A stretch of 24,000 nucleotides of DNA, from positions 8,564-32,563 of the forward strand of contig NZ_BLAJ01000014.1 of assembly GCF_009176305.1 (NCBI RefSeq), in the 5' to 3' direction. The DNA comes from Rhizobium dioscoreae (GTDB lineage: Bacteria; Pseudomonadota; Alphaproteobacteria; Rhizobiales; Rhizobiaceae). The translations under genes and the position numbers were made by a program. Shown here piece after piece: positions 10,763 to 24,000 of this stretch. The notes under the pieces were generated by a model. The model was given only the letters and a program-made list of their open reading frames with translations, did no database searches and was not told where the DNA came from. The stretch's first letter is position 1. Every line of letters starts with the position of its first letter.

Positions 10763-10969
10763 ATGGAATTAAGTTTTTCTCCGGCCTCTCAATCAGAAGA
10801 CGCTGACGATTTAGCCAGAGAATGCCAGCGTCGCTTGCAGCCCATCATCAGCGAAGTCGTTCGAACTGCGGTTACAGCTGGATGGAGCGAGAGCGCTGTT
10901 CTTCTGGCGACGGTTGACGTTGCCTGGGCCCTCTATGAAGGATGCCGAAGCGAATCCGATAGTCATTGA
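10763..10969 (+). CDS. Hypothetical small acidic protein
   Basis: A 68-aa ATG ORF ending in tandem stops (TGA TAG), with helical-looking composition. No family recognised. The overlapping antisense ORF 10811..11191 is equally unsupported. Confidence 0.3.
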   Translation: MELSFSPASQSEDADDLARECQRRLQPIISEVVRTAVTAGWSESAVLLATVDVAWALYEGCRSESDSH

Positions 10970-10981
10970 TAGCGGAGCAAA

Positions 10982-11128
10982 GTGCGCGACAGCGCTGCCG
11001 CCATCGCTGTGCCAACGGGTGCCGCGGAAGCTGTGGAAGAGAGGCCTGGCTACAAGGATGTTGATTTTTCCCATGTCTGGGAGGAATGGCAGGCCCTTCG
11101 CCGGCAGTTCGATCAATCTAAGCCGTGA
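10982..11128 (+). CDS. Hypothetical small protein (48 aa, below the ORF-track cutoff)
   Basis: GGAG at 10973..10976, then GTG 10982. The translation is VRDSAAAIAVPTGAAEAVEERPGYKDVDFSHVWEEWQALRRQFDQSKP-stop (TGA 11126..11128). It is in the same frame as the preceding ORF, 13 nt after that ORF's double stop. Confidence 0.2.
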   Translation: MRDSAAAIAVPTGAAEAVEERPGYKDVDFSHVWEEWQALRRQFDQSKP

Positions 11129-11363
11129 CGAGCCAAAGCGTACGATTTCGCCCCAGCCATCAATTGGAACACCAATCCCGATTTTTGGCACGCGCCCATA
11201 TCTACCGGCGATTCATCGGGATGATCCGTCTCAATTATCGTGACGGCAATGCCACCGGCACGATCATGACGCCGAAGACGGCGACATGATCGACCTCCCG
11301 AGGCGGCTGAGTAACGCCAGCTGTTGCAGGCCGCAGCTTCTCCCCACTGCGGCAGGGGCCTTC

Positions 11364-11420
11364 TGTGAACTTTAGTTCACATTTAGTTTGCCTTTCTTTG
11401 GCGCGTGAATTATAGTTCAC
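11364..11420. promoter_or_regulatory. Two palindromic operator-like sites upstream of the toxin-antitoxin operon
   Basis: TGTGAAC-TTTA-GTTCACA (11364..11381, perfect 7-4-7) and GTGAAT-TATA-GTTCAC (11405..11420, one mismatch). Both share the GTGAAC/GTTCAC half-site and lie directly before ATG 11423. Confidence 0.5.
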
Positions 11421-11422
11421 AG

Positions 11423-11713
11423 ATGATCGAAGTCCGCCAAACCACCGTTTTTTCAGAATGGCTCAAGGCTCTCCGAGACAGAAATGCCGCTTCGCGCATT
11501 GCCGTCAGAATCCGGCGTCTTGAGCTCGGCAATCCCGGCGATATCAAAGCCGTGGGTGATGGTGTGAGTGAAATGCGGATCGATTACGGACCAGGATATC
11601 GTTTGTATTTGACTTATACGGGCCGCACCTTGGTCATTCTTTTATGTGGCGGCGACAAGTCCTCGCAGACGCGCGATATTGCCCAGGCGAAGAAAATGGC
11701 GAAGGAGATCTGA
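11423..11713 (+). CDS. Type II toxin, RelE/ParE superfamily (addiction module killer protein, HigB-like)
   Basis: MIEVRQTTVFSEWLKALRDRNAASRIAVRIRRLELGNPGDIKAVGDGVSEMRIDYGPGYRLYLTYTGRTLVILLCGGDKSSQTRDIAQAKKMAKEI matches my recollection of the 'putative addiction module killer' family. I prefer ATG 11423 over GTG 11405, which lies inside the operator. Confidence 0.85.
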   Translation: MIEVRQTTVFSEWLKALRDRNAASRIAVRIRRLELGNPGDIKAVGDGVSEMRIDYGPGYRLYLTYTGRTLVILLCGGDKSSQTRDIAQAKKMAKEI

Positions 11714-11714
11714 C

Positions 11715-12026
11715 ATGGTGCTAGAAACGACCCGCTTTGATGTTCTGGATTACCTGAAAACGCCGGAGGAACGCTTCGCTTATATCGAAGCTGCTTTTGA
11801 GGATGGCGACCCCTCGCTGATTGCTCATGCGCTTGGCGATGTTGCTCGTTCCATCGGCATGAGTGCTGTTGCCAAGGAAGCAGGTGTAACGCGGGAAGCG
11901 CTCTATAAAGCCCTGAGTGAGCACGGCGATCCGAAGCTTTCGACGCTGATCGGTGTCGCCAGAGCGCTCGGCGTGAAACTCTCCGTGTCGCCCACCTCGT
12001 CGGACGAGCCCTCGAAGGCGGCTTGA
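11715..12026 (+). CDS. Type II antitoxin, addiction module antidote protein (HigA-like, XRE helix-turn-helix)
   Basis: ATG 11715 lies 1 nt after the toxin stop (TGA 11711..11713). The translation is MVLETTRFDVLDYLKTPEERFAYIEAAFEDGDPSLIAHALGDVARSIGMSAVAKEAGVTREALYKALSEHGDPKLSTLIGVARALG. It has the family-typical helix-turn-helix and the toxin-first gene order. Confidence 0.85.
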   Translation: MVLETTRFDVLDYLKTPEERFAYIEAAFEDGDPSLIAHALGDVARSIGMSAVAKEAGVTREALYKALSEHGDPKLSTLIGVARALGVKLSVSPTSSDEPSKAA

Positions 12027-12317
12027 TTACGAGGTGGCGTGAAGATTTCCTTCGTCGCTGTCTTATAGGGCTGAAGCCGCAGCCTATGCCGAGACTTGGG
12101 CCATCGGCGCGGCTTGGCTCCCCCTCCCTCATCCGCCCTGCCGTTTCCACGGCGGACGAGGGCAAGGGCCGTTTGCTGGCTGCCGAGGCAGATCAGGACA
12201 GCGACTGCCATGCAAGGAACATGATCAATGTCTCCGAGGCAGCTGAGTAATCAGCCGTCGACAGTCGTAGTTTCTCCCCGCTGCGGCCGCTTGCTTTCTT
12301 CGTATCTTGCCCGTTGT

Positions 12318-12662
12318 TCAGCCCGTGGAGCGCGGTCTCCTGATCGTTGCTGGGCGGATCTTCTTCCAATCCAAACCAGCCAGAAGTGCCATGAGCTGAG
12401 CATGGTTGAGGCGGATACGCCCCGCCGTCGCTGCCGGCCGGCAAAAGCCATTCTCCTCGAGAATTTTCGAATAAAGGCAGACCCCGCTGCCATCCCACCA
12501 AACGATCCGGACACGGTCCGCCCGTTTCGACCGGAAGACATAAAGCGCGCCGTTTAACGGGTCGAGGCCACCATCTCTGACCAGAGCCATCAATGATGCC
12601 GCACCTTTGCGGAAGTCGACAGGCTGGCACGACACATAAACAATAACACCAGACGCGATCAT
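12318..12662 (-). CDS. tnpB: IS66-family accessory protein TnpB (IS66 Orf2)
   Basis: 114 aa. The translation VYVSCQPVDFRKGAASLMALVRDGGLDPLNGALYVFRSKRADRVRIVWWDGSGVCLYSKILE is a near-textbook IS66 Orf2 sequence. Confidence 0.9.
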   Translation of the reverse strand: MIASGVIVYVSCQPVDFRKGAASLMALVRDGGLDPLNGALYVFRSKRADRVRIVWWDGSGVCLYSKILEENGFCRPAATAGRIRLNHAQLMALLAGLDWKKIRPATIRRPRSTG

Positions 12663-13066
12663 GCCTGACGAACCGCCCGCAGGATCTTCACCAGACGTTC
12701 AGTCGCAAGATCGCCGCCTACGCGCACTACAGCATCACCGATGACAATCTCAACCGCAGAACCGGCGACCGCCTCGACCTGTGCAAACCGAACCTGTGTA
12801 TCAACTGACTTCGAGAGAGGAGCAATCGATCCCGAGGCGATTGCTTTGCGACGCCAATCGTAAAGCTGAGAGGGATCCAGACCCGCTCCACGGGCAATCG
12901 CTGATACATTCGCCCCCGGCTCCAGAGTTGCGGCAACCAAACGGGCCTTCTCATCATGCGGCCAGTCTCTCGGCTTGCGGCGCGTCGCGATTGGTGTCGC
13001 CGTCAAAAGCTCGAAGGCTCGGGTCTGATTCACAGTATCACTCATAGGACTCTCCGCATGACTCAT
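12659..13066 (-). CDS. tnpA: IS66-family accessory protein TnpA (IS66 Orf1, helix-turn-helix)
   Basis: 135 aa. It reads RRKPRDWPHDEKARLVAATLEPGANVSAIARGAGLDPSQLYDWRRKA, then ...VRFAQVEV..., and ends with ...LVKILRAV. Its stop overlaps the tnpB ATG. M8 (13045) is an alternative start. Confidence 0.85.
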   Translation of the reverse strand: MSHAESPMSDTVNQTRAFELLTATPIATRRKPRDWPHDEKARLVAATLEPGANVSAIARGAGLDPSQLYDWRRKAIASGSIAPLSKSVDTQVRFAQVEAVAGSAVEIVIGDAVVRVGGDLATERLVKILRAVRQA

Positions 13067-13418
13067 GCAGAAAATGAGCGTTCTGTCCCTCCAGCGCTAC
13101 GTGGGATGGCCTACCCGCTTACGAACAATTGGTAATTGGCGCCACATCACTCAGGAAAGCTGGACACGTTGCGCCGAGATTCTGTTTACAGCCGCAGCTT
13201 ATTGGGCTGGATTTCGCCGTTCCCGATCACACGACCCTGAGCCGTCGGACGAGATTGAAAATCCGCCAAGTGTAGCAGGACAGGTCACGTCATATATGTC
13301 GGATTAGGATCAAGCTTTTCGAACGCGCCATTTCCGAGTGGCTGGGAGCCAGCCCTATCATTCGCCGGAAATCGCACCTCAAATGACAAGCGACGTATAC
13401 CTGTCCATAAAACGGATT

Positions 13419-16400
13419 TCAGAATCTCACCTTCAGATCGGCCCGCAATCCATGCTCTCGCGCGTTGCGAGCCAGTGAGCCGGAATATGAGAGCCCCAGC
13501 ATCGCCCCGTTAGTAAGATTGAGATCAAGACCGGTCTCGATGACGGCCACGTCCTCAGCAATCGGCACGCCAGCTACCGTGTATGGATTGCCGCCCGTAA
13601 ATGCGAGTGACGCGGTCGGCACTTTGTCGCCAAAGGTGTGACGCCAACCAACCATGGCGCGTGCCGTAGCCTCGGCATCCCCGAGCGCAAATCGGGTGTT
13701 CCCCCTGAGGCCTAGCGTCGAATAGGTGACGTCCTCTCCGCCGCGTGATCCGTTGAGAGCCGCATCTCCGCCCTTCTCTGTAAAGTTGTTGCTATTGTAA
13801 TTTACATGAGCGAGACCAGCAAACGGCTCCAACGAGAGCGCCTCCCCTTCGAGCCGATATCCAGCCTCGCCGAAAATCTGGGCGGTGGCTGCGTGATAGC
13901 GACCTCTTTCCGTTTCGGAAAAGCCCGGAAAAGCGACAGACCGGGTCGTATCGACATTGTGCCAGGAATAAGCGGTTCCGAAACGCAAACCCAAGCGGCC
14001 AATCTCGGACCCACCATAGGCACCGATATGGTATGTGTCGACGCCAGCGTTGGAGGCGCGGCTTGCGAGATCATTGGAGGCATGGTCATAGCCGGTGACA
14101 AAGCCGAAGCGCCAATCATCGTTAACGCTCACGTCAGCGCCCAACAGAAACCCACCAATCGAACGATCGAACGATTCTGCATTGCCATTACCGTCCCATC
14201 GCCCCCAGGAGCCGAAGCCACGCGCCCAGGCGGTAACGGCAGTTCCTCTAACCGGGGCCGTGTCCGGCCCGGATGGCCGCGCACCTGCCGAGTCGATGTC
14301 CAAAAAGGCAGCGCGCGATCGATCAATCGCCGCCTCGCGAATGAAGCGGCTGTCCTCCAATATCGCCCCCTGGAGCGAGGCATGAATTTCACCTGATAAC
14401 GCGTCCAGTGCCCGCTGTGCGTCGCTCGCGTCCGGAATCGCCGCCAAGGCCTGGTTGACCAAATTGCCTTGCCCGCTACTCTCTAATCCATTGGCCGCCA
14501 CGCACTGATTGGATGTGCGGGCGACATCACAGTACCTGACCGCGTTGCGCGTGACGTCGACAAAAACGTTTTCGGGATCGTAGGAGAGCGACAAATTCAC
14601 AAAAGGCATATTCTGCGTCAGCTGCTCAAAGGTGCCCGTCACCCCATCATCAGCCGAGAGGATGACCCAACGACTGCCCGGAGTGAAAGTACCGGCGGAC
14701 TTCACCACATCAACCGTTCCACCATGAATAGTTGCTGCACCCGTCGCTCCGATCAAGTCCCCGGCCAAGCTCGGGGTGATGTCTACAGCATAGGTCGAGC
14801 CTTCATCAAATGTGATATCGCCATTGACATGGAGGGTTCCCGGCGAATGACCGGGAGAGATGGTGCCGCCTTGAGCAATAGTCGTTGTTCCGATGGTGCC
14901 GGTGCCGCCAAGTTTGCCGCCGGAAGCGATGTTGAGCGTTCCGCCGAGCTTACCATCGACGAAGAGCGTGCCGCTGGAGATCGTTGTTGTACCGGTAAAG
15001 GCGCTCGAGTCGGCCGAAAGGTTGATGCTGCCAGAGCCAAGCTGCCGTATGTTGCCGCCGCCACTGATCCTACCGGCAAAGACAAGATCGTCGGAACGGT
15101 CGAAGGCGAGCGTTGCATTGTCAACGACGTCGCCCACAATTGAGCCTGATGCGCCGCCAACGCCGAGCTTCAAGGTTCCGTCGCTGATTATCGTATTGCC
15201 GGCATAGCTGTTGGTTCCCCTCAGCGTGAGCGTGCCGGCCCCCGCTTTGACGAGTTCCCCCACACCGGTGATAACTCCGTCCACCCGAAGATCCGCATCC
15301 GTCTGAAGCGTGCCGCCACCGGCATCCAAGCTAACTGTCCGCAGGGTTGCAATATCGGATGTATTTCTAAGGCTGCCGCCGTCGAGGGTTAGTCCACCGG
15401 CTTCGGTACCAAGATTAGAGTCCGAAGAAATCAGGAGTGTTCCGTCTCTGATCGTCGTGCCGCCGGCATAGGTGTTGGCGCCCGTCAGCGTCAGCGTGCC
15501 GCTGCCGGTCTTGACGAGCGCGCCACCGCCGCTGATGACACCGCTCGCCGTAAGGTCGGAGTCTGTTTGAAGCGTGCCGCCACCGCCATTGAGCGTCATG
15601 TTGCGGGCGGTGTCGAACGCTGCGGTTGTTTGAAGCACGCCTGCGTCAAACGTGAGCGCGCCCGCCGTCAGGCCCAGATTGGCGTCGGAGGAAACCCGCA
15701 CGACGCCGCCCAGAATGCTCGTTCCGCCGGCATAGGTGTTTACTCCTGATAAGATGAGTGTCCCCGCATCCGTCTTCACCAACCCGCCGCTTCCAGAAAT
15801 TTGGGCGTTTATAGTCGCCACCACGCCCGGGTCGGTCCTGATCGTGGTCGCCGCGTCGCTGGCGGTCAGGGTATCTCCGTCGATCACATAGCCATCGCTC
15901 ATGAACTGAATGCCCTTGAAACCAACGGCACCAGCGGAATTGTCAATGGTGACAGTACCGGCGCTACCCCCAAATACGGCGAAATCCTGCCGCCAAATGC
16001 CATTGATCGCGCCATTCGCATCGGTCCAATTGCGGCTTGAGGCGTCCCACCTTCCGCTGCCGCCGGTTATGGTGCCGTCATCGTGGCGAGCGACATCGCC
16101 ACCGTCCCAAAAGCCGAGTGTGGCGCCGACGCTGGAGATGAGATTTATCTGACCTGCAATATTGGTTTGGACATAGAGGTCGCTCGAACTGACGCCGCTG
16201 GGTAGAGCGCCCAGGGCCAGGCCGTTATCCGTCAGTCCCCCGCCATAGTTCATCAACCGATAGACACCAGCGCTGAAGCCGCCGACGTCGATGACGTTCA
16301 ACGTGCCATCCAGGGTAAGGTTGCCAGTGACCTCGATCAAATCATTGACACCGCCGCCGATTACGCCCGGGCGACCGAGCTGATAATTGAGAATGGAACC

Positions 16401-18173
16401 GCCATTAAATGAAAGCGAACCCACCGTCAGGGTGCCGGGGCTCGACCCCGGCGCGATTATGCCGCCATCCGCCACGGTGACGGATCCGGCAATCGAGCCT
16501 GAACCTCCGAGTGTGGCACCGCTAGCCACGGTCACAGCGGTATTGGCAAGGGAGCCTTCGACGCTAAGCATGCCATCCGCGACGGTCGTCGCGCCGATAT
16601 AGGTGCTAGAGCCCGACAATGTCAGTTTGCCGCCACCCGTTTTCGTGAGCGGCCCGGAACCGCTGATGACGCCGCTCAGTTCGAGATCGGCGTCGGTCTG
16701 AAGCGTTCCATTGTTGTCCAGGACAATATCGCGTGCGGTGGTAAAGGAACTTGTCGCCTGCAGCGTGCCCATGTCGAATGTCAAGGCACCTGAAAGCGCG
16801 CCGAGGTTGTTGTCAGACGAGACTGACAGGGTCCCACCGCTGATCGTCGTGCCGCCCAGATAGGTGTTCAACCCAGTAAGGGTCAATCGTCCATTGCGGG
16901 ATTTTATTACGCTACCGGCTCCCGAGATGGTGCTCGCGTCGACAAAATCAGCCCCGCTGGTGTCAAAGCCGATCGTCGACATACCGTCTTGCAGGTCAAT
17001 TGAATTGTTTAGAATTAGCCCGCTGCGCAGTGGCGAGATAACCGCACCCGCGCCTGGCGCGATTACGATATTCCCGATGAAATTCGAGCCGTCCAATAGC
17101 TGAAGGACGTTTCCGGTGCCATTGAACTGTATGGCCGCGGCGCGGGTCACACCGTCGCTATTGAGCCCGCCAGCGATGGTGCCACCATTAGTAATGAAAG
17201 TATGTCCCCAGCTGATAACGCCCGCGCCCGCGGCTGCGCCATTTCCCGCCCCGCCCGTGATTGTGCCAATGTTTTGCAGAAAGCTGCCGAAGCCGCCAAG
17301 ATTGACACCCGCGCCACTCGCCCCGGCGCTACCGGTTCCGCCCAGAGAAGCCGTTCCGGGGCTGCCTCCCATGCCGCCGGTGATGGAGCCGATGTTGGTA
17401 ACCTGCGTCGCGTCACCAAAGACGAGCAAGCCGTCACCGCCACCGCCGCCACCGGCGCCAAAGCCGCCGCTACCACCGTCTCCTCCATTCCCTCCGACGA
17501 TGGTGCCTTCATTGGAAACCGTGGCCCCGACAAAAGCCGATACTATACCTGCGCCACCACCACCACCGCCGGCGCCATTGCCCACGCCACTGCTTGCCGT
17601 GCCACCCCGACCACCCAAACCCCCAGACACGGTGACGCCGCTGACAATGAAGACGTCTGAACCGGAAAAAAGAGCGGCTCCGCCACCGCCTCCGCCGCTT
17701 GCAAAATTAAAACCATCCGGCGCAGCCGTCCCATTAACGCCGGCCAAGTCAGCGCCAATCACGACGGAAGCACCGAAGGCAAATGAGGCTCCTGTTGCGC
17801 CGCCCTGCCCTCCGGGAACATCGCCGACGGCCCCATTTCCACCCGCGCCGTTCGTGCTTGCGTTGCCGGAAATAACGTCAGTGTTGCCGGTGCTTGGGTT
17901 GAAGGCACTTGTACCACCGCCATCGCCGTTGCCGGCGCCGCCATTTCCCGTGCGGTTTGGAACGCCGGCACCACCTTCGGCGCTGCAAGGAGCTGTCGCG
18001 GCCGGGCCGCACGCAGCCCAGGCCGATGTAAGATAACCATCCGTCAGAGTAAAAAAGGCCGCCATCGCCAAAGCCGATGCGCTCATCAGTGGTGTCGGCC
18101 AGGCTCGAGGGGTTAGGAAAAGAAAGCAACGCCGTCGCTCAACGAAAGGCACAGCAATTTTTTTCGTTTCCAT
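13419..18173 (-). CDS. Autotransporter (type Va) with a Gly-rich N-terminal passenger, multiple autotransporter-associated beta-strand (PATR) repeats and a C-terminal beta-barrel
   Basis: The signal-like N-terminus is MSASALAMAAFFTLTDGYLTSAWA. The passenger contains long Gly/Ala/Asn-rich stretches. At least four repeats of the form G.LTL.G.NTY.GGT.I..GTL.VSSD.NLG...G.LT.D.G.LQ are present. The C-terminal ~280 aa barrel runs from WARGFGSWGRWDG... to the terminal ...LRADLKVRF. The start is ambiguous: ATG 18173, ATG 18086, or the track's 18227. Confidence 0.92.
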   Translation of the reverse strand: METKKIAVPFVERRRCFLFLTPRAWPTPLMSASALAMAAFFTLTDGYLTSAWAACGPAATAPCSAEGGAGVPNRTGNGGAGNGDGGGTSAFNPSTGNTDVISGNASTNGAGGNGAVGDVPGGQGGATGASFAFGASVVIGADLAGVNGTAAPDGFNFASGGGGGGAALFSGSDVFIVSGVTVSGGLGGRGGTASSGVGNGAGGGGGGAGIVSAFVGATVSNEGTIVGGNGGDGGSGGFGAGGGGGGDGLLVFGDATQVTNIGSITGGMGGSPGTASLGGTGSAGASGAGVNLGGFGSFLQNIGTITGGAGNGAAAGAGVISWGHTFITNGGTIAGGLNSDGVTRAAAIQFNGTGNVLQLLDGSNFIGNIVIAPGAGAVISPLRSGLILNNSIDLQDGMSTIGFDTSGADFVDASTISGAGSVIKSRNGRLTLTGLNTYLGGTTISGGTLSVSSDNNLGALSGALTFDMGTLQATSSFTTARDIVLDNNGTLQTDADLELSGVISGSGPLTKTGGGKLTLSGSSTYIGATTVADGMLSVEGSLANTAVTVASGATLGGSGSIAGSVTVADGGIIAPGSSPGTLTVGSLSFNGGSILNYQLGRPGVIGGGVNDLIEVTGNLTLDGTLNVIDVGGFSAGVYRLMNYGGGLTDNGLALGALPSGVSSSDLYVQTNIAGQINLISSVGATLGFWDGGDVARHDDGTITGGSGRWDASSRNWTDANGAINGIWRQDFAVFGGSAGTVTIDNSAGAVGFKGIQFMSDGYVIDGDTLTASDAATTIRTDPGVVATINAQISGSGGLVKTDAGTLILSGVNTYAGGTSILGGVVRVSSDANLGLTAGALTFDAGVLQTTAAFDTARNMTLNGGGGTLQTDSDLTASGVISGGGALVKTGSGTLTLTGANTYAGGTTIRDGTLLISSDSNLGTEAGGLTLDGGSLRNTSDIATLRTVSLDAGGGTLQTDADLRVDGVITGVGELVKAGAGTLTLRGTNSYAGNTIISDGTLKLGVGGASGSIVGDVVDNATLAFDRSDDLVFAGRISGGGNIRQLGSGSINLSADSSAFTGTTTISSGTLFVDGKLGGTLNIASGGKLGGTGTIGTTTIAQGGTISPGHSPGTLHVNGDITFDEGSTYAVDITPSLAGDLIGATGAATIHGGTVDVVKSAGTFTPGSRWVILSADDGVTGTFEQLTQNMPFVNLSLSYDPENVFVDVTRNAVRYCDVARTSNQCVAANGLESSGQGNLVNQALAAIPDASDAQRALDALSGEIHASLQGAILEDSRFIREAAIDRSRAAFLDIDSAGARPSGPDTAPVRGTAVTAWARGFGSWGRWDGNGNAESFDRSIGGFLLGADVSVNDDWRFGFVTGYDHASNDLASRASNAGVDTYHIGAYGGSEIGRLGLRFGTAYSWHNVDTTRSVAFPGFSETERGRYHAATAQIFGEAGYRLEGEALSLEPFAGLAHVNYNSNNFTEKGGDAALNGSRGGEDVTYSTLGLRGNTRFALGDAEATARAMVGWRHTFGDKVPTASLAFTGGNPYTVAGVPIAEDVAVIETGLDLNLTNGAMLGLSYSGSLARNAREHGLRADLKVRF

Positions 18174-18406
18174 CCCATCCCCAACACGTCTTCGCAGACT
18201 GACTGCCCCACGCCCCAATGTCAGCACCGTGCTTGCGCTTTCTCGTCAAACGCGGAAGTGCCTTTCAATTCCCTCTATCATGAGGAGCATTTTACAGCCA
18301 GAGAATAACATCAAAATTGCGCAACATGCATCTTCGGCGCGCATTCCGCGACTATGTTACGGCACCCAGCCGCTCGCGGTTGAGCAATTGCTACTCCAAA
18401 CATTCG

Positions 18407-19508: not shown

Positions 19509-19852
19509 GTGTCTTCTTTCACGCAGAAGATGTCATGGAGGGCGCAGACCAGTTGCGCGGCCTTCTCCTCGGTTAGGCGGTAGAATATCTGCTTTCCCTC
19601 CCGCCGTGTTTCGACAGTTCCCGAGCTGCGCAGTACGGTCAGATGCTGGGAAAGATGCGGCTGATGGATGTCGAGTTTTTCTTCGAGCTCGCTGACGGAG
19701 AACTCTCCCTCAACGAGCGAGCAGACAATCATCAGACGCGCCTGGTGCGACAAGGTCTTTAGGAGATCGGCGACCTCTCCGGCCCGGCCGGCCATCCCCG
19801 CGGGGGAGAGCCCCGCTTTCATCACCGCCTTCGATTCGGTCCTCATTCCCAT
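19505..19852 (-). CDS. bigR: ArsR/SmtB-family redox-switch repressor BigR
   Basis: The winged helix-turn-helix reads LLKTLSHQARLMIVCSLVEGEFSVSELEEKLDIHQPHLSQHLTVLRSSG. An N-terminal-region Cys (IVCSL) and a C-terminal Cys (LVCALHDIFC) match the BigR disulfide-switch layout. It lies immediately downstream of blh. The start is either ATG 19852 or ATG 19846; the latter overlaps the blh stop as ATGA. Confidence 0.88.
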   Translation of the reverse strand: MGMRTESKAVMKAGLSPAGMAGRAGEVADLLKTLSHQARLMIVCSLVEGEFSVSELEEKLDIHQPHLSQHLTVLRSSGTVETRREGKQIFYRLTEEKAAQLVCALHDIFCVKEDT

Positions 19853-21141
19853 GCGGCTCCCTGCAACGCATCGAGGGGAAATTTGAGGTAGCGCTTGCCA
19901 TTGGCCTCCGGCTTTGGAAGGCGCCCGCCGCGGATGTTAACCTGCAAGGCATGCAGGATGAGCTTCGGCATGGGCAGCGTCCTGTCCCGCTTGGTCCGGA
20001 GCGCCACGAACTGCTCTTCCGTCATACCGGCAAAATGCTGGTTGGTCTTCTTCTGCTCGGCCACCGTGCTTTCCCAGCGCGGGGCACGACCGTATGGCTG
20101 GTAGTCGTGTCCGGTAAAGATGCGTGTTTCTTCCGGAAGGGCGAGAATGCCCTGAATTGATTTCCAAAGGACGAGGGCGTCGCCTCCAGGGAAGTCCGCG
20201 CGCGCCGTGCCGCTGTCGGGCATGAACAGCGTGTCGTGAACAAACGCCGCATCGCCGATCACATAGGTGATTGAGGCAAGTGTATGGCCTGGCGAGAACA
20301 GAACCTTCCCATCGATGGAGCCTATCTTGAAGATCTCTGCGTTGGCGAACAGCCGGTCCCATTGCGAACCGTCGGTGGCCAGGTCCGGCCAATTGTAGAT
20401 GCCCTTCCACAACTTCTGAACATCGACGACGCGTTCACCGATCGCCGTCCGGGCGCCGGTCTTCTCCTTAAGATAATGGGCTGCGGAGAAATGGTCGGCA
20501 TGCGGATGAGTGTCGAGGATCCACTCGACGGTTAGACCGCTGTCGTGCACATAGTCGAGGATCGCATCAGCATTGATGGTTGCGGTGGCTCCGGACTTCT
20601 CATCGAAATCGAGCACTGGATCGATGATGGCGCACTTGGACGTCTCGGGATCGGACACGACATACTGCACGCTCCAGGTGCGCTTGTCGAAGAAACCCTT
20701 CACCTGCGGCCGACGCGCGGCGTTCTGCTTGAGCCAGGCGGCAGCGGCACTGGTGTCGAAGCCGCTGGCGCGTCCAAACTCGGCGACGTCTTCCGCGGCC
20801 ATTCGCCCGTCGAGGACCTCGCCGATCAGATAGAGGCTGAGTGACCTCGTGCCCGACTTGCAGTGCGCCAAGACCGGGCCTTCGGAGGCGTCGAGCGCCT
20901 TCTGGAATGCACGCACGTCGGCTTCGGTGATCGTAGCGAGGGTGATCGGGATGTACAGGTAGGACAGGCCGCATTGCTCGGCCTCCTGGCTTTCGACGTC
21001 CGTGCCGGGCTGGGCGGCGTCCTCGCCGTCCGGGCGGTTGTTGATCAGCGTCTTGAATCCCCGGCCACGCAGTGATCTGATATCATCGACAGTCGGCTGC
21101 GGCGAGACCGATAACCTCTCAGAAACCTTGATGACAGACAT
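19843..21141 (-). CDS. blh: Blh: DUF442 (phosphatase/sulfurtransferase-like) domain fused to a metallo-beta-lactamase-fold persulfide dioxygenase (ETHE1-like)
   Basis: GGAGCC RBS, then ATG 21141 (MSVIKVSERLSVSPQ). The N-terminal domain carries the HCKSGTRS active-site loop. The C-terminal MBL domain carries THPHADH (HxHxDH) plus later His and Asp ligands. The architecture and the neighbouring genes match the Xylella/Agrobacterium blh-bigR operon. Confidence 0.9.
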   Translation of the reverse strand: MSVIKVSERLSVSPQPTVDDIRSLRGRGFKTLINNRPDGEDAAQPGTDVESQEAEQCGLSYLYIPITLATITEADVRAFQKALDASEGPVLAHCKSGTRSLSLYLIGEVLDGRMAAEDVAEFGRASGFDTSAAAAWLKQNAARRPQVKGFFDKRTWSVQYVVSDPETSKCAIIDPVLDFDEKSGATATINADAILDYVHDSGLTVEWILDTHPHADHFSAAHYLKEKTGARTAIGERVVDVQKLWKGIYNWPDLATDGSQWDRLFANAEIFKIGSIDGKVLFSPGHTLASITYVIGDAAFVHDTLFMPDSGTARADFPGGDALVLWKSIQGILALPEETRIFTGHDYQPYGRAPRWESTVAEQKKTNQHFAGMTEEQFVALRTKRDRTLPMPKLILHALQVNIRGGRLPKPEANGKRYLKFPLDALQGAAWE

Positions 21142-21172
21142 GACTGGCTCCGTAGTCCATAACAATATACAT

Positions 21173-21186
21173 TATAATATATTATA
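21173..21186. promoter_or_regulatory. AT-only perfect 14-bp palindrome in the blh promoter (candidate BigR box / -10 region)
   Basis: TATAATATATTATA is its own reverse complement. It sits in a ~40-bp pure-AT tract starting 32 nt upstream of the blh ATG. BigR is reported to bind an AT-rich inverted repeat that overlaps the -10 of the blh promoter. Confidence 0.5.
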
Positions 21187-21229
21187 TAATATAATAATCT
21201 CAAGCCTCTTGAGGAGCTTTATTGTCGCG

Positions 21230-21427
21230 GCAGACTACAGACCGAAGAGGCGGCACGCAGACCTAGAAAAATGGCTTGCAGCGGCGCCTCTCCACAGTCG
21301 GCCGGCCGAAGCTGGCATCGCCGAAATGATGGCAGGCCTCTACCGCCGCCCGCTTGATCCTATAGCCGAGGCGCGGCTATTCGAATGGCACCGAATGATC
21401 ATGATGGCGCCTGGATATCGCAGTTAA
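21230..21427 (+). pseudogene. Remnant of a Fic/DOC-family (DUF4172-type) gene
   Basis: The tail of ORF 21002..21427 reads ...RPAEAGIAEMMAGLYRRPLDPIAEARLFEWHRMIMMAPGYRS-stop. It resembles the segment of Fic family proteins that precedes the Fic core (..GIAEMM..LY...PL....LF.WH.ML......G.YR). The Fic catalytic motif region is absent, and the upstream part of the ORF overlaps blh and the AT tract. Confidence 0.4.
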
Positions 21428-21490
21428 GGGCCCAGGTCAGGTCGGAGACATTCAACTGACTCAATATTTAACCCGTGGAAAAAATAACAT

Positions 21491-21985
21491 TCATAGCAGA
21501 TTGTTATAGTCATAATTGTATTCCAAAACCTCCTGATAGCTCCAAATTCTGCCATCAATTCTATCAATATAGATATGCTTCGATCCGACTCGTTCCTCGA
21601 CATCTGGATCAACAGCTCTCTTGCTGATCCGAAATGCCCAGAAAACAGGAGGACACAACTCCGTGGCCGCACTATGAGTGAGCTGTTCATCGCTATCCTT
21701 CAAGAAGTCAGCAGCAATCGCTCTTGCCTTCTCCTGTGGAATGTTCTCGCTATCTCGGTACTCAATAGGAACGCTGAAGGAAACGATATTACTTTGACGT
21801 AAACACGTGACGGTCGAAACAGCGTGCAATCGTTGCAGATCTACCCGCAGATATTCACGATAAACCTTCTGCCGGTCGATAAACCCAGCAATCGTAAACA
21901 AATTCAATCCTTGAAGACAGCCATGATCTCCGCCGACGGAAGACGCGAGATATATATCACATATTTGTTTCAATTTCAGCATCAT
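21491..21985 (-). CDS. Candidate immunity protein for the upstream toxin tip (CdiI-like by position), no recognised family
   Basis: A 164-aa ORF starting 34 nt after the cdiA stop, on the same strand, with an AAGG RBS about 8 nt upstream. It is markedly AT-rich, like the toxin tip. No signal peptide or TM segment is evident, consistent with a cytoplasmic protein. Confidence 0.6.
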   Translation of the reverse strand: MMLKLKQICDIYLASSVGGDHGCLQGLNLFTIAGFIDRQKVYREYLRVDLQRLHAVSTVTCLRQSNIVSFSVPIEYRDSENIPQEKARAIAADFLKDSDEQLTHSAATELCPPVFWAFRISKRAVDPDVEERVGSKHIYIDRIDGRIWSYQEVLEYNYDYNNLL

Positions 21986-22019
21986 GACTACGCCTTTGTT
22001 AGATTTTGCTTAATCCAAG

Positions 22020-24000
22020 TTAGTCGGCCGATTGTATAAAAACTGCTCTACCGGTCATTTCTTTCTCCAGCGCGCTTTTGGGTACAGAGTAACTAGAACC
22101 TGCGCCGAGAGGCCAAGGATCACGTATATAGGCGGTATTGTTCGAAATGGAATCAACAATTATTGCGTGTGGTTGAACGCTTCCAGGCACCTTTACGGTA
22201 ACTATTACTCCATTACCTTTGGCCAAGGCATCTGAGATAGCGTTGGCCGTCGTCTCGCTGGCAAAAGTCGCATTTCCTCGGAACCCAAGCTGTTCGAGCG
22301 CTTGAGGTACACTAGATAGGAAGGCACCGTCGCCAGAATCCCCAAGAGCTTGTCGAATGTATGCTTCCGGCAATTCGATGTTACTACCCATTCTAACGCA
22401 GGCAGAAACGCACGAAGACAACTGATTTTGGCCAACGGCAGGATTTTCGGGCACATACTCTCCACGTGCAATTCCGGGGAAAATTCCCTCACCAGATCCT
22501 GTTCGTTCCTCGTTACCTAGGTTTTTGAGCACATTGTTCGTCTTAAACTTTGACAAAAACGTCAACACTTGAACAAGTGCAAGCGGATCGCCGTTGCTGG
22601 CCTTTGCAATAAGCGATGGGATGGCGGTCACGCCAAATGGATCCCCGGTAAGCACCGTAATAAGCTTGACGGCGTCGCTCCTTTCTTGTGGGGAGAGTTT
22701 ATCAAATCCTTCTGGAGCCATGATCTTCAATATTTGCTCGAACCCGCCGCTCCTGTTGAGCTCATCGAGTTCTGAGCGGTATTCATCTGCGGATATAAAC
22801 CAAGATGATGCCGTACCACTGTAACTCGACAACGCAGCTACCACGCTAGCGAAAACTGCACCGCATCCTTCAGCCTGATAACCACTTGGTTTGCACGCAA
22901 TCATCGCGTCCTGCTGCTGCTTATCCTTGGCCTCCAGCCGTGCCTTCTCCTTGCAGGCTTCATCATCCCCGCCTTTGCACGCTGCCTTTGCCGCATTCAA
23001 CGCATCGTTGTCGGCATGGTCGAGATAATTATACTGATACTGCGCGACGCCATACGAGGCACCTTCACCACCACCGATTGCTCCCGCGAGACCACTAAGG
23101 CTAGAACCGATAGCTGCTGCAAGCGCCTGCTTGTCCTGATCGGACAAGGTGCTGTCCTTCAGCATGCCCTTGACCAGATCGGCAATGGCTGGTGTCAGCA
23201 GCGCTGAAGTTGCAGCACCGGCAGCCCCCTTGAGCGCACCCTCCCAGCCATTGACGCCGCCGAGAATGCCGGCGCCGATCGTGTGCAGCAGCACGCGGCC
23301 GGCTCCACCCTCCTTCCAATAGTCCATTCCAGCCTGGTCGCGGCCTTCCGCGGCCTGCCGGTAGAACTCACTGGCGATATCGCCCACCAGCCCCGCCATT
23401 GTCGCTTGCGCCGCCTGCAGATCGGCCTGCGTCTTATACTGCTGGCGCAGGATGTTCTGCAGGTCCGGCAGACCGGGCAGCGAGCTATTGGTGTTCTCGG
23501 TATCGCGGCGGATCGTGGAGATGTCCTGCACCTGATGCGCCGGATCGGTGATCGCGATGCCGATATTGCCGCCGATGGCCGAATAGGCCTTGCCGGTCTC
23601 CTTCTCGCCGGCCTTGACGGGCGGAGCGATGGTGAGCCCGCTGGTGCCGATCCCGCCGCCATAGGTTTCGGCCTTCCAGGTCGAATGCGTGTCGATATCG
23701 GCAACCGTCAGCGTGCCGGTGGAGAAGGAGTTCTTGTCCGCCGTCGCCTGGCTGGTAATCAGCCCGCCAACAAGCGACGTCTGGCCGCTGACATCGATGT
23801 TGAGACCGCCGGTGCCTGCATGAATGCCCGATTGTTCGGAGACGAGCACCGCATCGCCCTTGGCCTTCTGCACCGTGCCGGAGACGCCGGTGTTGCCAAA
23901 GCCGATCTGGCCGGAGACATTGAACTGATCGGCCTTGGCCTTCTGCGTATCAAGCTGGCTTTCGATCGTCAGCGAGCGGGCATCGATGCCGACCGAATTG
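22020..24000 (-). CDS. cdiA: 3' portion of a CdiA/filamentous-haemagglutinin-type two-partner-secretion exoprotein with a variable C-terminal toxin domain (5' end outside the window)
   Basis: The frame stays open from 23873 to the window edge. I translated 23999..23874 as NSVGIDARSLTIESQLDTQKAKADQFNVSGQIGFGNTGVSGT with no stop. FHA-type beta-helix repeat text is present (GLNIDVSGQTSLVGGLITS...). A Gly/Ala-rich pretoxin region leads to AQYQYN|YL (N codon at 23028..23030). A divergent tail of ~335 aa with lower GC follows. Confidence 0.88.
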   Translation of the reverse strand, partial: NSVGIDARSLTIESQLDTQKAKADQFNVSGQIGFGNTGVSGTVQKAKGDAVLVSEQSGIHAGTGGLNIDVSGQTSLVGGLITSQATADKNSFSTGTLTVADIDTHSTWKAETYGGGIGTSGLTIAPPVKAGEKETGKAYSAIGGNIGIAITDPAHQVQDISTIRRDTENTNSSLPGLPDLQNILRQQYKTQADLQAAQATMAGLVGDIASEFYRQAAEGRDQAGMDYWKEGGAGRVLLHTIGAGILGGVNGWEGALKGAAGAATSALLTPAIADLVKGMLKDSTLSDQDKQALAAAIGSSLSGLAGAIGGGEGASYGVAQYQYNYLDHADNDALNAAKAACKGGDDEACKEKARLEAKDKQQQDAMIACKPSGYQAEGCGAVFASVVAALSSYSGTASSWFISADEYRSELDELNRSGGFEQILKIMAPEGFDKLSPQERSDAVKLITVLTGDPFGVTAIPSLIAKASNGDPLALVQVLTFLSKFKTNNVLKNLGNEERTGSGEGIFPGIARGEYVPENPAVGQNQLSSCVSACVRMGSNIELPEAYIRQALGDSGDGAFLSSVPQALEQLGFRGNATFASETTANAISDALAKGNGVIVTVKVPGSVQPHAIIVDSISNNTAYIRDPWPLGAGSSYSVPKSALEKEMTGRAVFIQSAD

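What the first reader, a model, noticed from the sequence alone, without database searches (positions are those of the whole stretch)
22020..23030. CdiA C-terminal toxin region with a predicted papain-fold Cys-His-Asp domain and a Burkholderia-like (Q)YN demarcation
**Seen.**
- The conserved Gly/Ala-rich pretoxin region ends at AQYQYN|YL (N codon 23028..23030).
- Downstream, the sequence changes character and GC content falls progressively, most clearly from about 22850 down to the end of the immunity gene.
- The tail begins with a Cys/Lys/Asp-rich linker (AACKGGDDEACKEKARLEAKDKQQQDAMIACKPSGYQAEGCG).
- A helical segment follows, containing LSPQERSDAVKLITVLTGDPFG, which is reminiscent of pre-toxin TG modules.
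- The last ~155 aa carry a Gln six residues before a Cys (GQNQLSSCVSAC; Cys codon 22410..22412).
- They also carry a His in QPHAIIVDS (22167..22169) and an Asp in AYIRDPW (22119..22121).

**Established knowledge.**
- A Q-x5-C ... H ... D/N order and these local contexts are typical of papain-like peptidases. The same fold is used by C39-like peptidases, glutamine deamidases and transglutaminase-type toxins in polymorphic toxin systems.
- (E/Q)LYN and VENN motifs mark the start of the swappable CdiA-CT.

**Inference.** This is a horizontally exchanged toxin cassette whose activity (protease versus deamidase) and cellular target are unknown. The variant YQYN motif in a Rhizobiaceae-like background is unusual.
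Basis: partly seen in the sequence, partly recalled or inferred. Interest (0 to 1): 0.72.

Follow-up and report, generated by a model that had tools for sequence, protein, structure and literature searches.

The report
Known-type cysteine-protease CDI toxin cassette

Summary
All motifs sit at the stated coordinates, and G+C falls from 0.63 to 0.51 to 0.44 across pretoxin region, CT and immunity gene.

The last ~160 aa are a C39 papain-fold peptidase:
- Pfam Peptidase_C39 scores 24.7 bits against a cutoff of 22.
- The AlphaFold model has pLDDT 94.9.
- The best Foldseek matches are Cpe1 (9L5U), PCAT1, StbD-CT (8SSK/8SSM) and ComA.
- Gln482, Cys488, His569 and Asp585 are 98-100% conserved in 122 relatives.

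The domain is always C-terminal, on CdiA, Rhs/Tc, PAAR, WXG100 and MuF carriers. YQYN(YL) is a real boundary: three Rhizobium CdiA modules share it and diverge right after it.

It is not new. Song et al. 2025 list the 98%-identical Rhizobium sp. ERR 1071 gene (FBZ99_10814/10815) as an "orphan CdiA" homologue of Cpe1. Cpe1 and StbD-CT cleave GyrB/ParE at HAGGK.

Still open:
- This gene is only 15.6% identical to Cpe1 and lies in an untested clade, so its substrate is unproven.
- Its entry domain (DUF6862 plus helices) has no known receptor.
- Its immunity protein matches no known family.
- In its closest relatives it is an orphan module, not the end of the full-length CdiA.

The pre-toxin-TG resemblance is not supported. 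"Burkholderia-like" rests on the shared YN only.

The parts
22020..24000 (-). 3' part (659 codons plus stop) of a cdiA-type gene. It runs off the window end. It is probably an orphan cdiA-CT module of about 733 codons.
   Evidence: Open frame. 98.2% aa identity to the 733-aa orphan ORF of Rhizobium sp. ERR 1071-like loci L008-L010, which starts 221 nt beyond the window end equivalent.
23040..24000 (-). FHA-2 / Gly-Ala-rich pretoxin region, the conserved homology arm.
   Evidence: 85% nt identity to the second orphan of Rhizobium sp. BK312 and 82% nt identity to its main CdiA (70% aa identity over residues 1-394 of the fragment, which runs past the motif). DNA homology stops at 23001-23023.
23028..23039 (-). 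YQYN pretoxin motif. It is followed by YL, and the polymorphic CT starts after the Asn.
   Evidence: (A/N)QYQYNYL is shared by the window, the BK312 main CdiA (HINT tail) and BK312 orphan 2 (tRNase tail). P0029 has NYNYNYL. The sequences diverge immediately after the motif.
22818..23012 (-). DUF6862 four-Cys module (C-x7-C ... C-x10-C), the N-terminal part of the presumed cytoplasm-entry domain.
   Evidence: Pfam PF21726, E 1.2e-11 and 3.4e-12. The same domain follows the NNYL motif in the CdiA proteins P0014 and P0012.
22533..22817 (-). Helical second part of the presumed entry domain. It includes LSPQERSDAVKLITVLTGDPFG and ends near KFKTNN.
   Evidence: Together with DUF6862 it is 76-81% identical to P0159/P0160, where it is fused to a different, non-C39 C-terminal domain. 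The junction falls after KF(K/R)T(N/G)N.
22023..22505 (-). C39 (papain-fold) cysteine peptidase toxin domain, including a conserved N-terminal G-x-G-[FIAV]-F segment.
   Evidence: Pfam Peptidase_C39 24.7 bits against cutoff 22. Profile against PDB: Cpe1 9L5U 1.2e-7, ComA 1.4e-7, StbD-CT 5.7e-5. AF2 pLDDT 94.9. Foldseek top hits are 9L5U, PCAT1, 8SSK/8SSM and ComA.
22428..22430 (-). Gln482, the oxyanion-hole Gln, six residues before the Cys.
   Evidence: 122/122 conserved. Same Q-x5-C spacing as StbD-CT Gln177/Cys183.
22410..22412 (-). Cys488, the predicted nucleophile. A second Cys (Cys492) lies four residues on, as in StbD-CT Cys183/Cys187.
   Evidence: 121/122 conserved. It aligns with the Cpe1 catalytic Cys362 in the HMM alignment.
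22167..22169 (-). His569, the predicted general base.
   Evidence: 121/122 conserved. It aligns with the catalytic His of Cpe1 and ComA.
22119..22121 (-). Asp585, the third triad residue, in the IRDPWP motif.
   Evidence: 120/122 Asp plus 2 Asn. It aligns with the D-P of Cpe1 and ComA.
21491..21985 (-). Candidate cognate immunity gene (164 aa). It starts 34 nt after the toxin stop codon.
   Evidence: 99% identical to FBZ99_10815, which Song et al. list as the immunity partner. It travels with the C39 domain in all three contexts. dN/dS is 0.12-0.15. No Pfam, NCBIfam or PDB match.

Best explanation
Window 21491-24000 holds a CDI toxin/immunity cassette of a known kind.

**The toxin tail.** The CT (336 aa after YQYN) has two parts:
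- A C-terminal C39 papain-fold cysteine peptidase with Gln482/Cys488/His569/Asp585. It belongs to the Tox-PLC39 / Cpe1 / StbD-CT group of interbacterial protease toxins.

**Proposed steps.**
1. The CT is carried on a CdiA filament and released after the Asn of YQYN once in the target periplasm. This is inferred from the CDI model.
2. The entry domain uses an unidentified inner-membrane protein to reach the cytoplasm. This is inferred. Its modularity is shown.
3. The peptidase cleaves an essential cytoplasmic protein. By homology this is most likely the HAGGK ATP-lid of GyrB and ParE, which would stop supercoiling and chromosome segregation. The fold and catalytic residues are shown. The substrate is inferred.
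4. The 164-aa downstream protein binds and neutralises the peptidase in sibling cells. This is inferred from position and co-inheritance.

**Orphan status.** In the closest sequenced relatives the module is an orphan behind another CdiA/CdiI pair. In that state it would act mainly as a stored, recombinable warhead plus an active immunity gene.

**Confidence by step.** About 0.9 that it is a C39 protease toxin cassette. About 0.4-0.45 that GyrB/ParE is the substrate.
For: - **Sequence family.** Peptidase_C39 passes the Pfam cutoff on the isolated domain.
- **Profile against solved structures.** The best match is Cpe1 9L5U_A (1.2e-7), and the list also includes StbD-CT 8SSM/8SSK.
- **Fold.** The AF2 model has pLDDT 94.9 and pTM 0.90. 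Foldseek top hits are Cpe1, PCAT1, StbD-CT, ComA and LahT, all with probability 1.00.
- **Catalytic residues.** The Q/C/H/D tetrad is 98-100% conserved. The Q-x5-C and C-x3-C spacings are identical to StbD-CT.
- **Toxin-type architecture.** The domain is always at the extreme C-terminus, on TPS/FHA, TcdB/Rhs, PAAR, WXG100 and Phage_Mu_F carriers.
- **Literature.**
  - Song et al. 2025 list TWB11634.1/FBZ99_10814 with immunity FBZ99_10815 as a Cpe1 homologue.
  - Cpe1 and StbD-CT cleave GyrB/ParE.
  - Zhang et al. 2012 defined Tox-PLC39.
- **Cassette behaviour.** The C39 domain plus immunity gene recur as an orphan in ERR 1071-like genomes, as a truncated orphan in BK312, and as a fragment next to an rve transposase gene.
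- **Entry-domain modularity.** The same entry region is fused to another toxin in P0159/P0160.
- **Selection and composition.** dN/dS is 0.13 for the toxin and 0.12 for the immunity gene. There is a compositional break.
Against: - The protein is only 15.6% identical to Cpe1tox.
- In Song et al.'s tree it sits in a clade separate from Cpe1/StbD, with ComA/LahT branching between them on weak support.
- The family profile scores ComA as well as it scores Cpe1: 34.6 against 34.8 bits.
- By my residue mapping onto the alignment, only three of the six Cpe1 hydrophobic exosite residues are hydrophobic here. Those six residues are the ones listed in the text. This is an inference from a weak alignment.
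- The entry region and the immunity protein show no sequence similarity to StbD-CT's YajC-dependent domain, StbI or Cpi1.
- The linker has GSGEG, not the Gly-Gly auto-processing site of StbD-CT.
- Whether the toxin is made at all is uncertain, because it is an orphan in relatives.
- No coordinates were available to measure the Cys-His distance.
Confidence: 0.65

Rival explanations
1. It has the same fold and the same delivery route but a different substrate. This clade of C39 toxins would cleave an essential protein other than GyrB/ParE, or a broader set of Gly-Gly sites.
For: - It lies in a separate clade from Cpe1/StbD in the published tree.
- It is equidistant from ComA and Cpe1 by profile score.
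- The exosite residues are only partly conserved (my mapping).
- The immunity protein is unrelated.
- No member of this clade has been tested.
Against: - Cpe1 and StbD, themselves divergent at GyrB-contact positions, share the same target.
- Most StbD-GyrB contacts are main-chain.
- HAGGK is a near-universal motif (general knowledge).
Confidence: 0.3
2. It is a silent orphan. The toxin ORF is not translated or exported in this genome. Only the immunity gene works, protecting against neighbours that deploy this toxin, and the module is a recombination reservoir.
For: - In L008-L010 the ORF follows another CdiA plus immunity gene. It begins with a mechanical TTG and non-homologous residues, and lacks a TPS domain.
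- Song et al. label it 'orphan CdiA'.
- In BK312 and L005-7 the toxin is truncated while the immunity gene stays intact.
- The 2022 CDI review describes exactly this pattern.
Against: - The 659-codon frame is intact, and dN/dS is low (0.2 overall against L009; 0.13 for C39 against BK312).
- The start of the ORF is outside the window, so orphan status is not directly seen.
- This reading is compatible with the best explanation rather than exclusive of it.
Confidence: 0.4
3. The C39 domain is a releasing or auto-processing peptidase, not the toxic agent.
For: - Zhang et al. 2012 note that papain-like domains in polymorphic toxins can be releasing peptidases.
- StbD-CT does self-cleave.
- A Gly-rich motif sits 25 residues before Cys488, the same spacing as the StbD Gly158 site.
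Against: - It is the last domain, so there is nothing downstream to release.
- It has a dedicated, co-inherited immunity-type gene.
- Its structural homologues Cpe1 and StbD-CT are toxic through their protease activity.
Confidence: 0.04
4. It is a papain-fold glutamine deamidase or transglutaminase toxin rather than a protease.
Against: - All significant Pfam, PDB-profile and top Foldseek matches are C39 peptidases. No deamidase or transglutaminase family appears in the Pfam or PDB-profile lists or among the top Foldseek matches.
- The C39-specific Gln oxyanion residue is invariant.
Confidence: 0.03

Closest known systems
Cpe1/Cpi1 of E. coli ATCC 11775 (Song et al., PLoS Biol 2025, PMC12136450; PDB 9L5U)
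   Same: - C39 papain-fold toxin domain at the C-terminus of a polymorphic toxin, with Q-x5-C, a second Cys at +4, and a His...Asp-Pro triad.
- It is the best sequence-profile and Foldseek match.
- The 98%-identical ERR 1071 gene is listed in that paper's S1 Table as a CDI-associated homologue.
   Different: - 15.6% identity and a different clade.
- The carrier is CdiA/orphan rather than PAAR-like/T6SS.
- The immunity protein is unrelated (5.3% identity per the paper; no PDB hit).
- The hydrophobic exosite is only partly conserved.
- The substrate has not been tested.
StbD-CT/StbI of Citrobacter rodentium (Nhan et al., bioRxiv 2026, 10.64898/2026.05.07.723447; PDB 8SSK, 8SSM, 12AJ)
   Same: - A CdiA-CT built as entry domain + linker + C39 peptidase.
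- Cys-containing helical entry domain.
- Identical Gln-to-Cys (6) and Cys-to-Cys (4) spacings.
- A Gly-containing motif 25 residues before the nucleophile.
- Foldseek E 5e-8.
   Different: - The pretoxin motif is VENN there and YQYN here.
- The entry domain there is YajC-dependent and shows no sequence similarity to this one.
- The auto-processing site there is Gly-Gly, whereas here it is GSGEG, and processing is untested.
- The sequence-profile match is weaker (26 bits, C-terminal half only).
Tox-PLC39 of Zhang et al. 2012 (PMC3482391) and the C39 peptidase domains of ABC exporters (ComA 3K8U, LahT 6MPZ, PCAT1)
   Same: Same fold and catalytic residues. The Pfam model PF03412 matches.
   Different: The exporter domains are N-terminal housekeeping leader peptidases. 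Tox-PLC39 was originally reported from Bacteroidetes, Chloroflexi and Firmicutes with T2SS/T6SS/PVC carriers, not from alpha-proteobacterial CdiA.
Orphan cdiA-CT/cdiI modules (Poole et al. 2011, as summarised in PMC9086364)
   Same: - A toxin 3' fragment plus immunity gene downstream of a complete cdiA/cdiI pair.
- It retains the pretoxin motif and an upstream homology arm.
- The immunity gene is conserved when the toxin decays.
   Different: - The arm is long, about 400 codons upstream of the motif.
- The arm matches a BK312-type CdiA (70-85%) rather than the resident ERR 1071-type CdiA (29% aa).
Burkholderia (E/Q)LYN pretoxin motif (Nikolakakis 2012 and Anderson 2012, via PMC9086364 and PMC3415462)
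   Same: The motif ends in Tyr-Asn and marks the start of the variable CT.
   Different: - The sequence is YQYN followed by YL, which also resembles the VENN-type xxNNYL of other CdiA proteins carrying this toxin (P0012-P0014).
- No cdiB lies downstream, as it would in Burkholderia gene order.
- YQYN is not among the motifs listed in the 2022 review.

Membership tests
C39 peptidase / papain-like fold (Pfam PF03412, MEROPS C39) | Sequence match to the family model above the curated cutoff | tested here: met
   The isolated 176-aa domain scores 24.7 bits against a cutoff of 22 (E 2.2e-5). Within the 659-aa fragment it scores 20.6 bits, just below cutoff. Relatives P0044, P0158, P0058 and P0035 score 30-40 bits.
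C39 peptidase / papain-like fold (Pfam PF03412, MEROPS C39) | Alpha/beta papain-like fold | tested here: met
   The AF2 model has pLDDT 94.9. Foldseek against the PDB gives Cpe1, PCAT1, StbD-CT, ComA and LahT at probability 1.00 with target TM 0.75-0.81. Staphopains and cathepsins rank lower.
C39 peptidase / papain-like fold (Pfam PF03412, MEROPS C39) | Conserved Gln, Cys, His, Asp/Asn in that order | tested here: met
   Conserved 122/122, 121/122, 121/122 and 120/122 (plus 2 Asn). They align to the catalytic residues of Cpe1 and ComA.
C39 peptidase / papain-like fold (Pfam PF03412, MEROPS C39) | Cys and His side chains juxtaposed in three dimensions | not testable with these tools
   The model's coordinates are not returned. 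Juxtaposition is inferred only from the fold match with aligned catalytic positions.
Cpe1 / StbD-CT GyrB-ParE-cleaving toxins | Recognised homologue of Cpe1tox in a toxin-delivery context with an adjacent immunity gene | tested here: met
   The ERR 1071 twin is listed in Song et al. S1 Table, with 15.6% identity. The window is 98.3% identical in nt to that locus. The top PDB profile and fold hit is 9L5U.
Cpe1 / StbD-CT GyrB-ParE-cleaving toxins | Membership of the experimentally characterised clade | tested here: not met
   The published tree puts ERR 1071 with Dyella, Xanthomonas and Limnobaculum, apart from the E. coli Cpe1 / C. rodentium clade. The ComA score equals the Cpe1 score.
Cpe1 / StbD-CT GyrB-ParE-cleaving toxins | Cleavage of GyrB/ParE within HAGGK | not testable with these tools
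   This needs biochemistry. Only Cpe1 and StbD-CT have been tested.
Cpe1 / StbD-CT GyrB-ParE-cleaving toxins | Gly-Gly auto-processing site in the linker about 25 residues before the nucleophile | tested here: inconclusive
   Gly463 lies exactly 25 residues before Cys488, but the motif is G-S-G-E-G|I-F, not G-G. Family columns are Gly 65/122, x, Gly 53 or Ser 29, [FAV], Phe 94/122.
Cpe1 / StbD-CT GyrB-ParE-cleaving toxins | YajC-type entry domain and Cpi1/StbI-type immunity protein | tested here: not met
   phmmer of the whole CT and of the immunity protein against all PDB chains (including 8SSK, 8SSM and 9L5U) gives no hit at E<=10.
CdiA-CT / CdiI module of contact-dependent inhibition | Conserved pretoxin motif followed by a variable tail | tested here: met
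   YQYNYL is shared by three Rhizobium modules with C39, HINT and tRNase tails. DNA homology ends at 23001-23023.
CdiA-CT / CdiI module of contact-dependent inhibition | Attachment to a TPS-exported FHA-repeat protein with a CdiB partner | tested here: inconclusive
   The upstream arm is 70% identical in aa to a 4505-aa TPS/Fil_haemagg_2 CdiA in BK312. In the 98% relatives, however, the ORF is a TPS-less orphan of 682-733 aa. The window ends first, and no cdiB was seen.
CdiA-CT / CdiI module of contact-dependent inhibition | Bipartite CT: modular entry domain plus toxin domain | tested here: met
   The entry region is 76-81% identical in P0159/P0160, where it is joined to a different C-terminal domain. 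It has a Cys-bearing N-terminal part, as described for entry domains.
CdiA-CT / CdiI module of contact-dependent inhibition | Cognate immunity gene immediately downstream that neutralises the toxin | tested here: inconclusive
   Position (34-nt gap), co-inheritance in three contexts and purifying selection are all met. Binding and neutralisation cannot be tested here.
Pre-toxin TG domain (PT-TG) | Match to the PT-TG family model | tested here: not met
   No PT-TG hit at E<=1 for the 659-aa fragment or for the 175-aa entry region.
Burkholderia-type CDI (bcpAIOB, (E/Q)LYN) | (E/Q)LYN motif and cdiB downstream of cdiA-cdiI | tested here: not met
   The motif is YQYN, sharing only YN. No ShlB/POTRA-type gene lies downstream in L001-L004 or L008-L010 or among the nine large window ORFs scanned.

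The most novel reading that the evidence does not exclude
This C39 toxin belongs to a large, experimentally untouched clade found on CdiA, Rhs, PAAR, WXG100, MuF and Bacteroidota carriers. The clade is as far from Cpe1 as from the bacteriocin leader peptidases. It may recognise a substrate other than GyrB/ParE. It may also reach the cytoplasm through a new inner-membrane receptor via the DUF6862-plus-helix entry domain, and be neutralised by an immunity protein with no known relatives.
Probability: 0.3. Interest if true: 0.55.

Novelty: already known. Interest (0 to 1): 0.27.

Why it matters
The result confirms that sequence reading alone picked out a real protease toxin and its boundary. The biology, however, is already published: C39/papain-like CDI and T6SS toxins that cut GyrB/ParE. 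The near-identical Rhizobium gene is already catalogued.

What remains worthwhile:
- The substrate of this divergent clade.
- The receptor of its entry domain.
- The structure and mode of action of its unrelated immunity protein.
- The YQYN pretoxin motif as a Rhizobium lineage variant.

If the substrate differs from GyrB/ParE, that would show how a simple Gly-Gly protease scaffold is retargeted among bacterial weapons.

Tried and rejected
- **Single-sequence searches were weak.**
  - phmmer of the CT and of the immunity protein against PDB gave nothing at E<=10.
  - NCBIfam gave nothing.
  - The word-indexed protein search found only 4 relatives of the toxin domain, 5 of the immunity protein and 2 of the entry region.
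  - The exhaustive profile search was needed to find the toxin family.
- **First structure model.** The first AF2 run used a 3-sequence alignment and gave pLDDT 65.7, with the catalytic Cys region disordered. It was discarded in favour of the 46-sequence run.
- **Recombination breakpoint at YQYN.** I tested whether the window and ERR 1071 differ at a breakpoint exactly at YQYN. They do not. 34 of 41-42 differences lie at 23601-23991, so that breakpoint is near 23600. The YQYN boundary is instead shown by comparison with the BK312 modules.
- **Rejected readings.**
  - The PT-TG resemblance, because there is no family hit.
  - The deamidase/transglutaminase reading, because there are no such matches.
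  - The releasing-peptidase reading, because the domain is terminal and has its own immunity gene.
- **No information found.** A literature search for DUF6862 found nothing. The ORF 21002-21427(+), which looked Fic-like by eye, has no Pfam hit.


Full report
**1.

The minus-strand frame ending at 22020 is open for 659 codons and runs off the window at 24000.
- The Asn of YQYN is at 23028-23030.
- The Cys/Lys/Asp-rich stretch is at 22860-22985.
- The LSPQERSD... segment is at 22632-22697.
- Gln is at 22428-22430, Cys at 22410-22412, His at 22167-22169 and Asp at 22119-22121.

Composition steps down across the locus. The drop begins near 23100-23000.

| Region | G+C | GC3 |
|---|---|---|
| Upstream of the motif | 0.632 | 0.76 |
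| Tail (CT) | 0.505 | 0.485 |
| Next ORF, 21491-21985 | 0.444 | 0.457 |
| Flanking genes | ~0.61 | – |

**2. The last ~160 residues are a C39 papain-fold peptidase.**

- Pfam Peptidase_C39 matches the isolated domain above its curated cutoff (24.7 against 22 bits). Weaker hits go to Peptidase_C39_2, DUF3335 and C70.
- The word-indexed search found only four relatives. A three-sequence profile run against 1.84 billion representatives then found 428 relatives at E<=1e-3 and 193 at E<=1e-10.
- In 122 full-length domain copies the following are conserved:
  - Gln482 in 122/122.
  - Cys488 and His569 in 121/122 each.
  - Asp585 in 120/122, the other two being Asn.
  - Also Glu503, Gly516, Arg584, Pro586, Pro588, Gly592 and Tyr595.
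- A 46-sequence alignment gave an AlphaFold2 model with mean pLDDT 94.9 and pTM 0.90. An earlier three-sequence run was poor.
- Foldseek against the PDB ranks, all at probability 1.00:
  - Cpe1 (9L5U_A, E 4e-8, target TM 0.76).
  - PCAT1.
  - StbD-CT (8SSK, 8SSM).
  - ComA (5XE8, 3K8U).
  - LahT (6MPZ).
  - Staphopains and cathepsins further down.
- A sequence profile of the family against all PDB chains gives Cpe1 at 1.2e-7, ComA at 1.4e-7 and StbD-CT at 5.7e-5. The catalytic Cys, His and Asp are aligned in these matches.

The Cys-His distance itself could not be measured, because coordinates are not returned.

**3. It is a toxin domain of polymorphic toxins.**

In almost all of the 150 best hits the domain ends at the protein's C-terminus. 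The N-terminal carriers include:
- TPS plus haemagglutinin repeats (P0014, P0012, P0021).
- TcdB/Rhs-type shells (P0046, P0158).
- PAAR (P0038).
- WXG100 (P0035, P0044).
- Phage Mu F (P0058).
- Uncharacterised ~700-aa Bacteroidota proteins.

This is the distribution expected of an interbacterial warhead, not of a housekeeping leader peptidase.

**4. The cassette and its boundary.**

- *Immunity candidate.* The 164-aa ORF starts 34 nt after the toxin stop codon. It has no Pfam, NCBIfam or PDB match. It has five close relatives, two of which carry organism names, both Rhizobium strains.
- *The C39 domain and this ORF travel together in three settings:*
  - In ERR 1071-like genomes (L008-L010), which are 98.3% identical to window 21426-24000.
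  - In Rhizobium sp. BK312 (L001-L004). There a truncated C39 fragment (94% aa identity) and an intact immunity gene (89%) sit in an orphan array behind a 4505-aa CdiA.
  - In soil metagenome contigs (L005-L007), as a shorter fragment plus an intact immunity gene beside an rve transposase gene.
- *Selection.* dN/dS against BK312 is 0.13 for the toxin fragment and 0.12 for the immunity gene.
- *Boundary.*
  - (A/N)QYQYNYL is shared by the window, the BK312 main CdiA (HINT-containing tail) and a second BK312 orphan (CdiA_C_tRNase tail). P0029 has NYNYNYL.
  - All of these diverge immediately after the motif.
  - DNA homology to both BK312 copies stops at window 23001-23023.
  - YQYN(YL) is therefore a genuine pretoxin motif for this Rhizobium CdiA lineage.
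- *How the motif compares with known ones.*
  - It shares Tyr-Asn with Burkholderia (E/Q)LYN.
  - It equally resembles the xxNNYL of other CdiA proteins carrying this toxin.
  - It is not among the motifs listed in the 2022 CDI review.
  - No cdiB follows the locus in relatives, so the Burkholderia gene order does not apply.

**5. The tail is bipartite.**

- Residues just after the motif are Pfam DUF6862 (E 1e-11), a four-Cys module. The same module follows the motif in other CdiA proteins.
- This module and the following helical segment, up to KFKTNN, are 76-81% identical to P0159/P0160. There they are joined to a different C-terminal domain that has no Pfam or PDB match.
- This swap is the signature of a CdiA-CT cytoplasm-entry domain. 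Cys-bearing helical entry domains are described in the literature.
- The suggested pre-toxin-TG resemblance has no support.

**6. It is probably an orphan module.**

- In L008-L010 a 4232-aa CdiA is followed by a DUF7674 immunity-type gene. About 25 nt later comes a 733-aa ORF (682 aa in L010) that is 98.2% identical to the window's 659 residues.
- That ORF begins with a mechanical TTG and non-homologous residues, and it has no TPS domain.
- Its pretoxin arm is only 29% identical to the resident CdiA but 70-85% identical to BK312-type CdiA. This suggests a displaced or imported 3' end.
- The window stops 221 nt short of that start and differs downstream (see section 10). Orphan status is therefore likely but not shown for this genome.

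**7. Comparison with what is known.**

- *Tox-PLC39.* Zhang et al. 2012 defined Tox-PLC39 as a C39-like toxin domain of polymorphic toxins.
- *Cpe1.* Song et al. 2025 showed three things:
  - Cpe1 of E. coli cleaves GyrB and ParE at a double-glycine consensus.
  - They solved the Cpe1-Cpi1 complex.
  - They catalogued 155 homologues.
- *This gene in that catalogue.* Their S1 Table lists TWB11634.1 of Rhizobium sp. ERR 1071.
  - Its locus tag is FBZ99_10814 and it is labelled "orphan CdiA", with 15.6% identity to Cpe1tox.
  - Its listed immunity partner is FBZ99_10815. That protein is P0005, 99% identical to the window's immunity ORF.
- *StbD-CT.* Nhan et al. 2026 showed the following:
  - The CdiA-type StbD-CT is a YajC-dependent entry domain plus a C39 peptidase.
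  - It cuts GyrB between Gly101 and Gly102 of HAGGK.
  - It must self-cleave after a Gly-Gly 25 residues before Cys183.
- *Shared with StbD-CT.* The window's domain has the same Gln-x5-Cys and Cys-x3-Cys spacings. It also has a Gly (Gly463, in GSGEG|IF) exactly 25 residues before Cys488.
- *Differences from the tested toxins.*
  - The motif is not Gly-Gly.
  - The entry domain and immunity protein are unrelated in sequence.
  - The protein lies in a different clade of the published tree, with ComA/LahT between on weak support.
  - The profile scores ComA as high as Cpe1.
  - Mapping the six Cpe1 exosite residues through the HMM alignment gives three hydrophobic equivalents (Leu510, Leu519, Phe537) and three that are not (Thr559, Lys561, Gln567). 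This is my inference and is sensitive to alignment.
- No member of this clade has been tested.

**8. Mechanism and confidence.**

- *Shown:* C39 fold, conserved catalytic tetrad, terminal position on many carriers, a real pretoxin boundary, a modular entry region, and a co-inherited downstream gene under purifying selection.
- *Inferred from the CDI model and from Cpe1/StbD-CT:* release after the Asn, import through an unknown inner-membrane protein, proteolysis of GyrB/ParE, and neutralisation by the 164-aa protein.
- I put about 0.9 on "C39 protease toxin/immunity cassette", about 0.4-0.45 on GyrB/ParE as substrate, and about 0.7 on orphan status in this genome.

**9. Verdict.**

The feature is already in the literature, both as a kind and as this specific gene, so interest is low.

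The residual open questions are:
- The substrate of this clade.
- The receptor of the entry domain.
- The immunity mechanism.
- Whether auto-processing occurs.

**10. Noticed along the way.**

- ERR 1071-like genomes carry 9.45 kb between the immunity gene and blh that the window lacks. The segment holds a DUF772 transposase gene, HTH and ArfC genes, and a gene for a 1694-aa TIG/Big_9 protein. The breakpoint is at window 21426.
- 34 of the 41-42 differences from those genomes fall in 23601-23991, indicating a mosaic 5' arm.
- The window also encodes a 1602-aa autotransporter at 13419-18227.

Noticed in passing
window 21426 (compare L008-L010 10559-20010): Relative to the 98%-identical Rhizobium sp. 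ERR 1071-like loci, the window lacks 9.45 kb between the immunity gene and blh. The missing segment carries a DUF772 transposase gene, an HTH gene, an ArfC-like gene and a gene for a 1694-aa TIG/Big_9 surface protein. Homology resumes at 93.6% on the blh side.
   Followed up: partly
window 23601-23991: 34 of the 41-42 nucleotide differences from L008-L010 cluster here (about 8.5% divergence). Only 1 falls in 23031-23600 and 6-7 in 21491-23030. This points to a recombination breakpoint near 23600 inside the FHA-2/pretoxin arm, not at YQYN.
   Followed up: partly
P0159 and P0160 (metagenome proteins; no window coordinates): The same entry region (YQYNYL...KFRTGN, 76-81% identity) is fused to a different C-terminal domain (…NDWRPINGAGAQVNTPAGFTSYITPDGDIVHV…HVLAHTQPD…). 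That domain has no Pfam or PDB match and is a candidate uncharacterised toxin domain.
   Followed up: partly
L001-L004 (Rhizobium sp. BK312 and matching contigs) 1-16400: A 4505-aa CdiA with a PT-HINT-containing tail and a DUF596 immunity-type gene is followed by an orphan array. The array holds the truncated C39 fragment plus immunity gene, a 678-aa orphan with CdiA_C_tRNase plus a 107-aa gene, and a further pretoxin fragment at 14187-14396.
   Followed up: partly
L008-L010 1-7739: The resident 4232-aa CdiA of ERR 1071-like genomes has a pretoxin region only 29% identical to the orphan's and lacks YQYN. Its downstream 115-aa gene hits DUF7674 weakly.
   Followed up: no
window 13419-18227 (-): A 1602-aa classical autotransporter (Autotransporter beta-domain, E 3e-65; six PATR repeats). 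It is unrelated to the CDI module.
   Followed up: no
window 19843-21165 (-) and 21166-21214: A blh-type gene (BLH_phosphatase plus metallo-beta-lactamase fold) lies directly downstream of the cassette. It is preceded by a very AT-rich stretch with promoter-like and hairpin matches on both strands.
   Followed up: no
window 4849-8330 and 10478-10978: These stretches are 84-89% identical to the region just beyond the CDI orphan array in BK312 (DUF1003, DoxX and HvfC_N genes). The CDI locus therefore occupies a comparable chromosomal neighbourhood in both lineages, with variable content in between.
   Followed up: no
window 22440-22505 (residues 457-478 of the 617 numbering): A semi-conserved G-x-G/S-[FAV]-F ... 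Y-x-P segment precedes the catalytic Gln and is modelled with high confidence (pLDDT about 96 from residue 11 of the model). Its Gly463 has the same 25-residue spacing to the nucleophile as the StbD-CT auto-cleavage site.
   Followed up: partly
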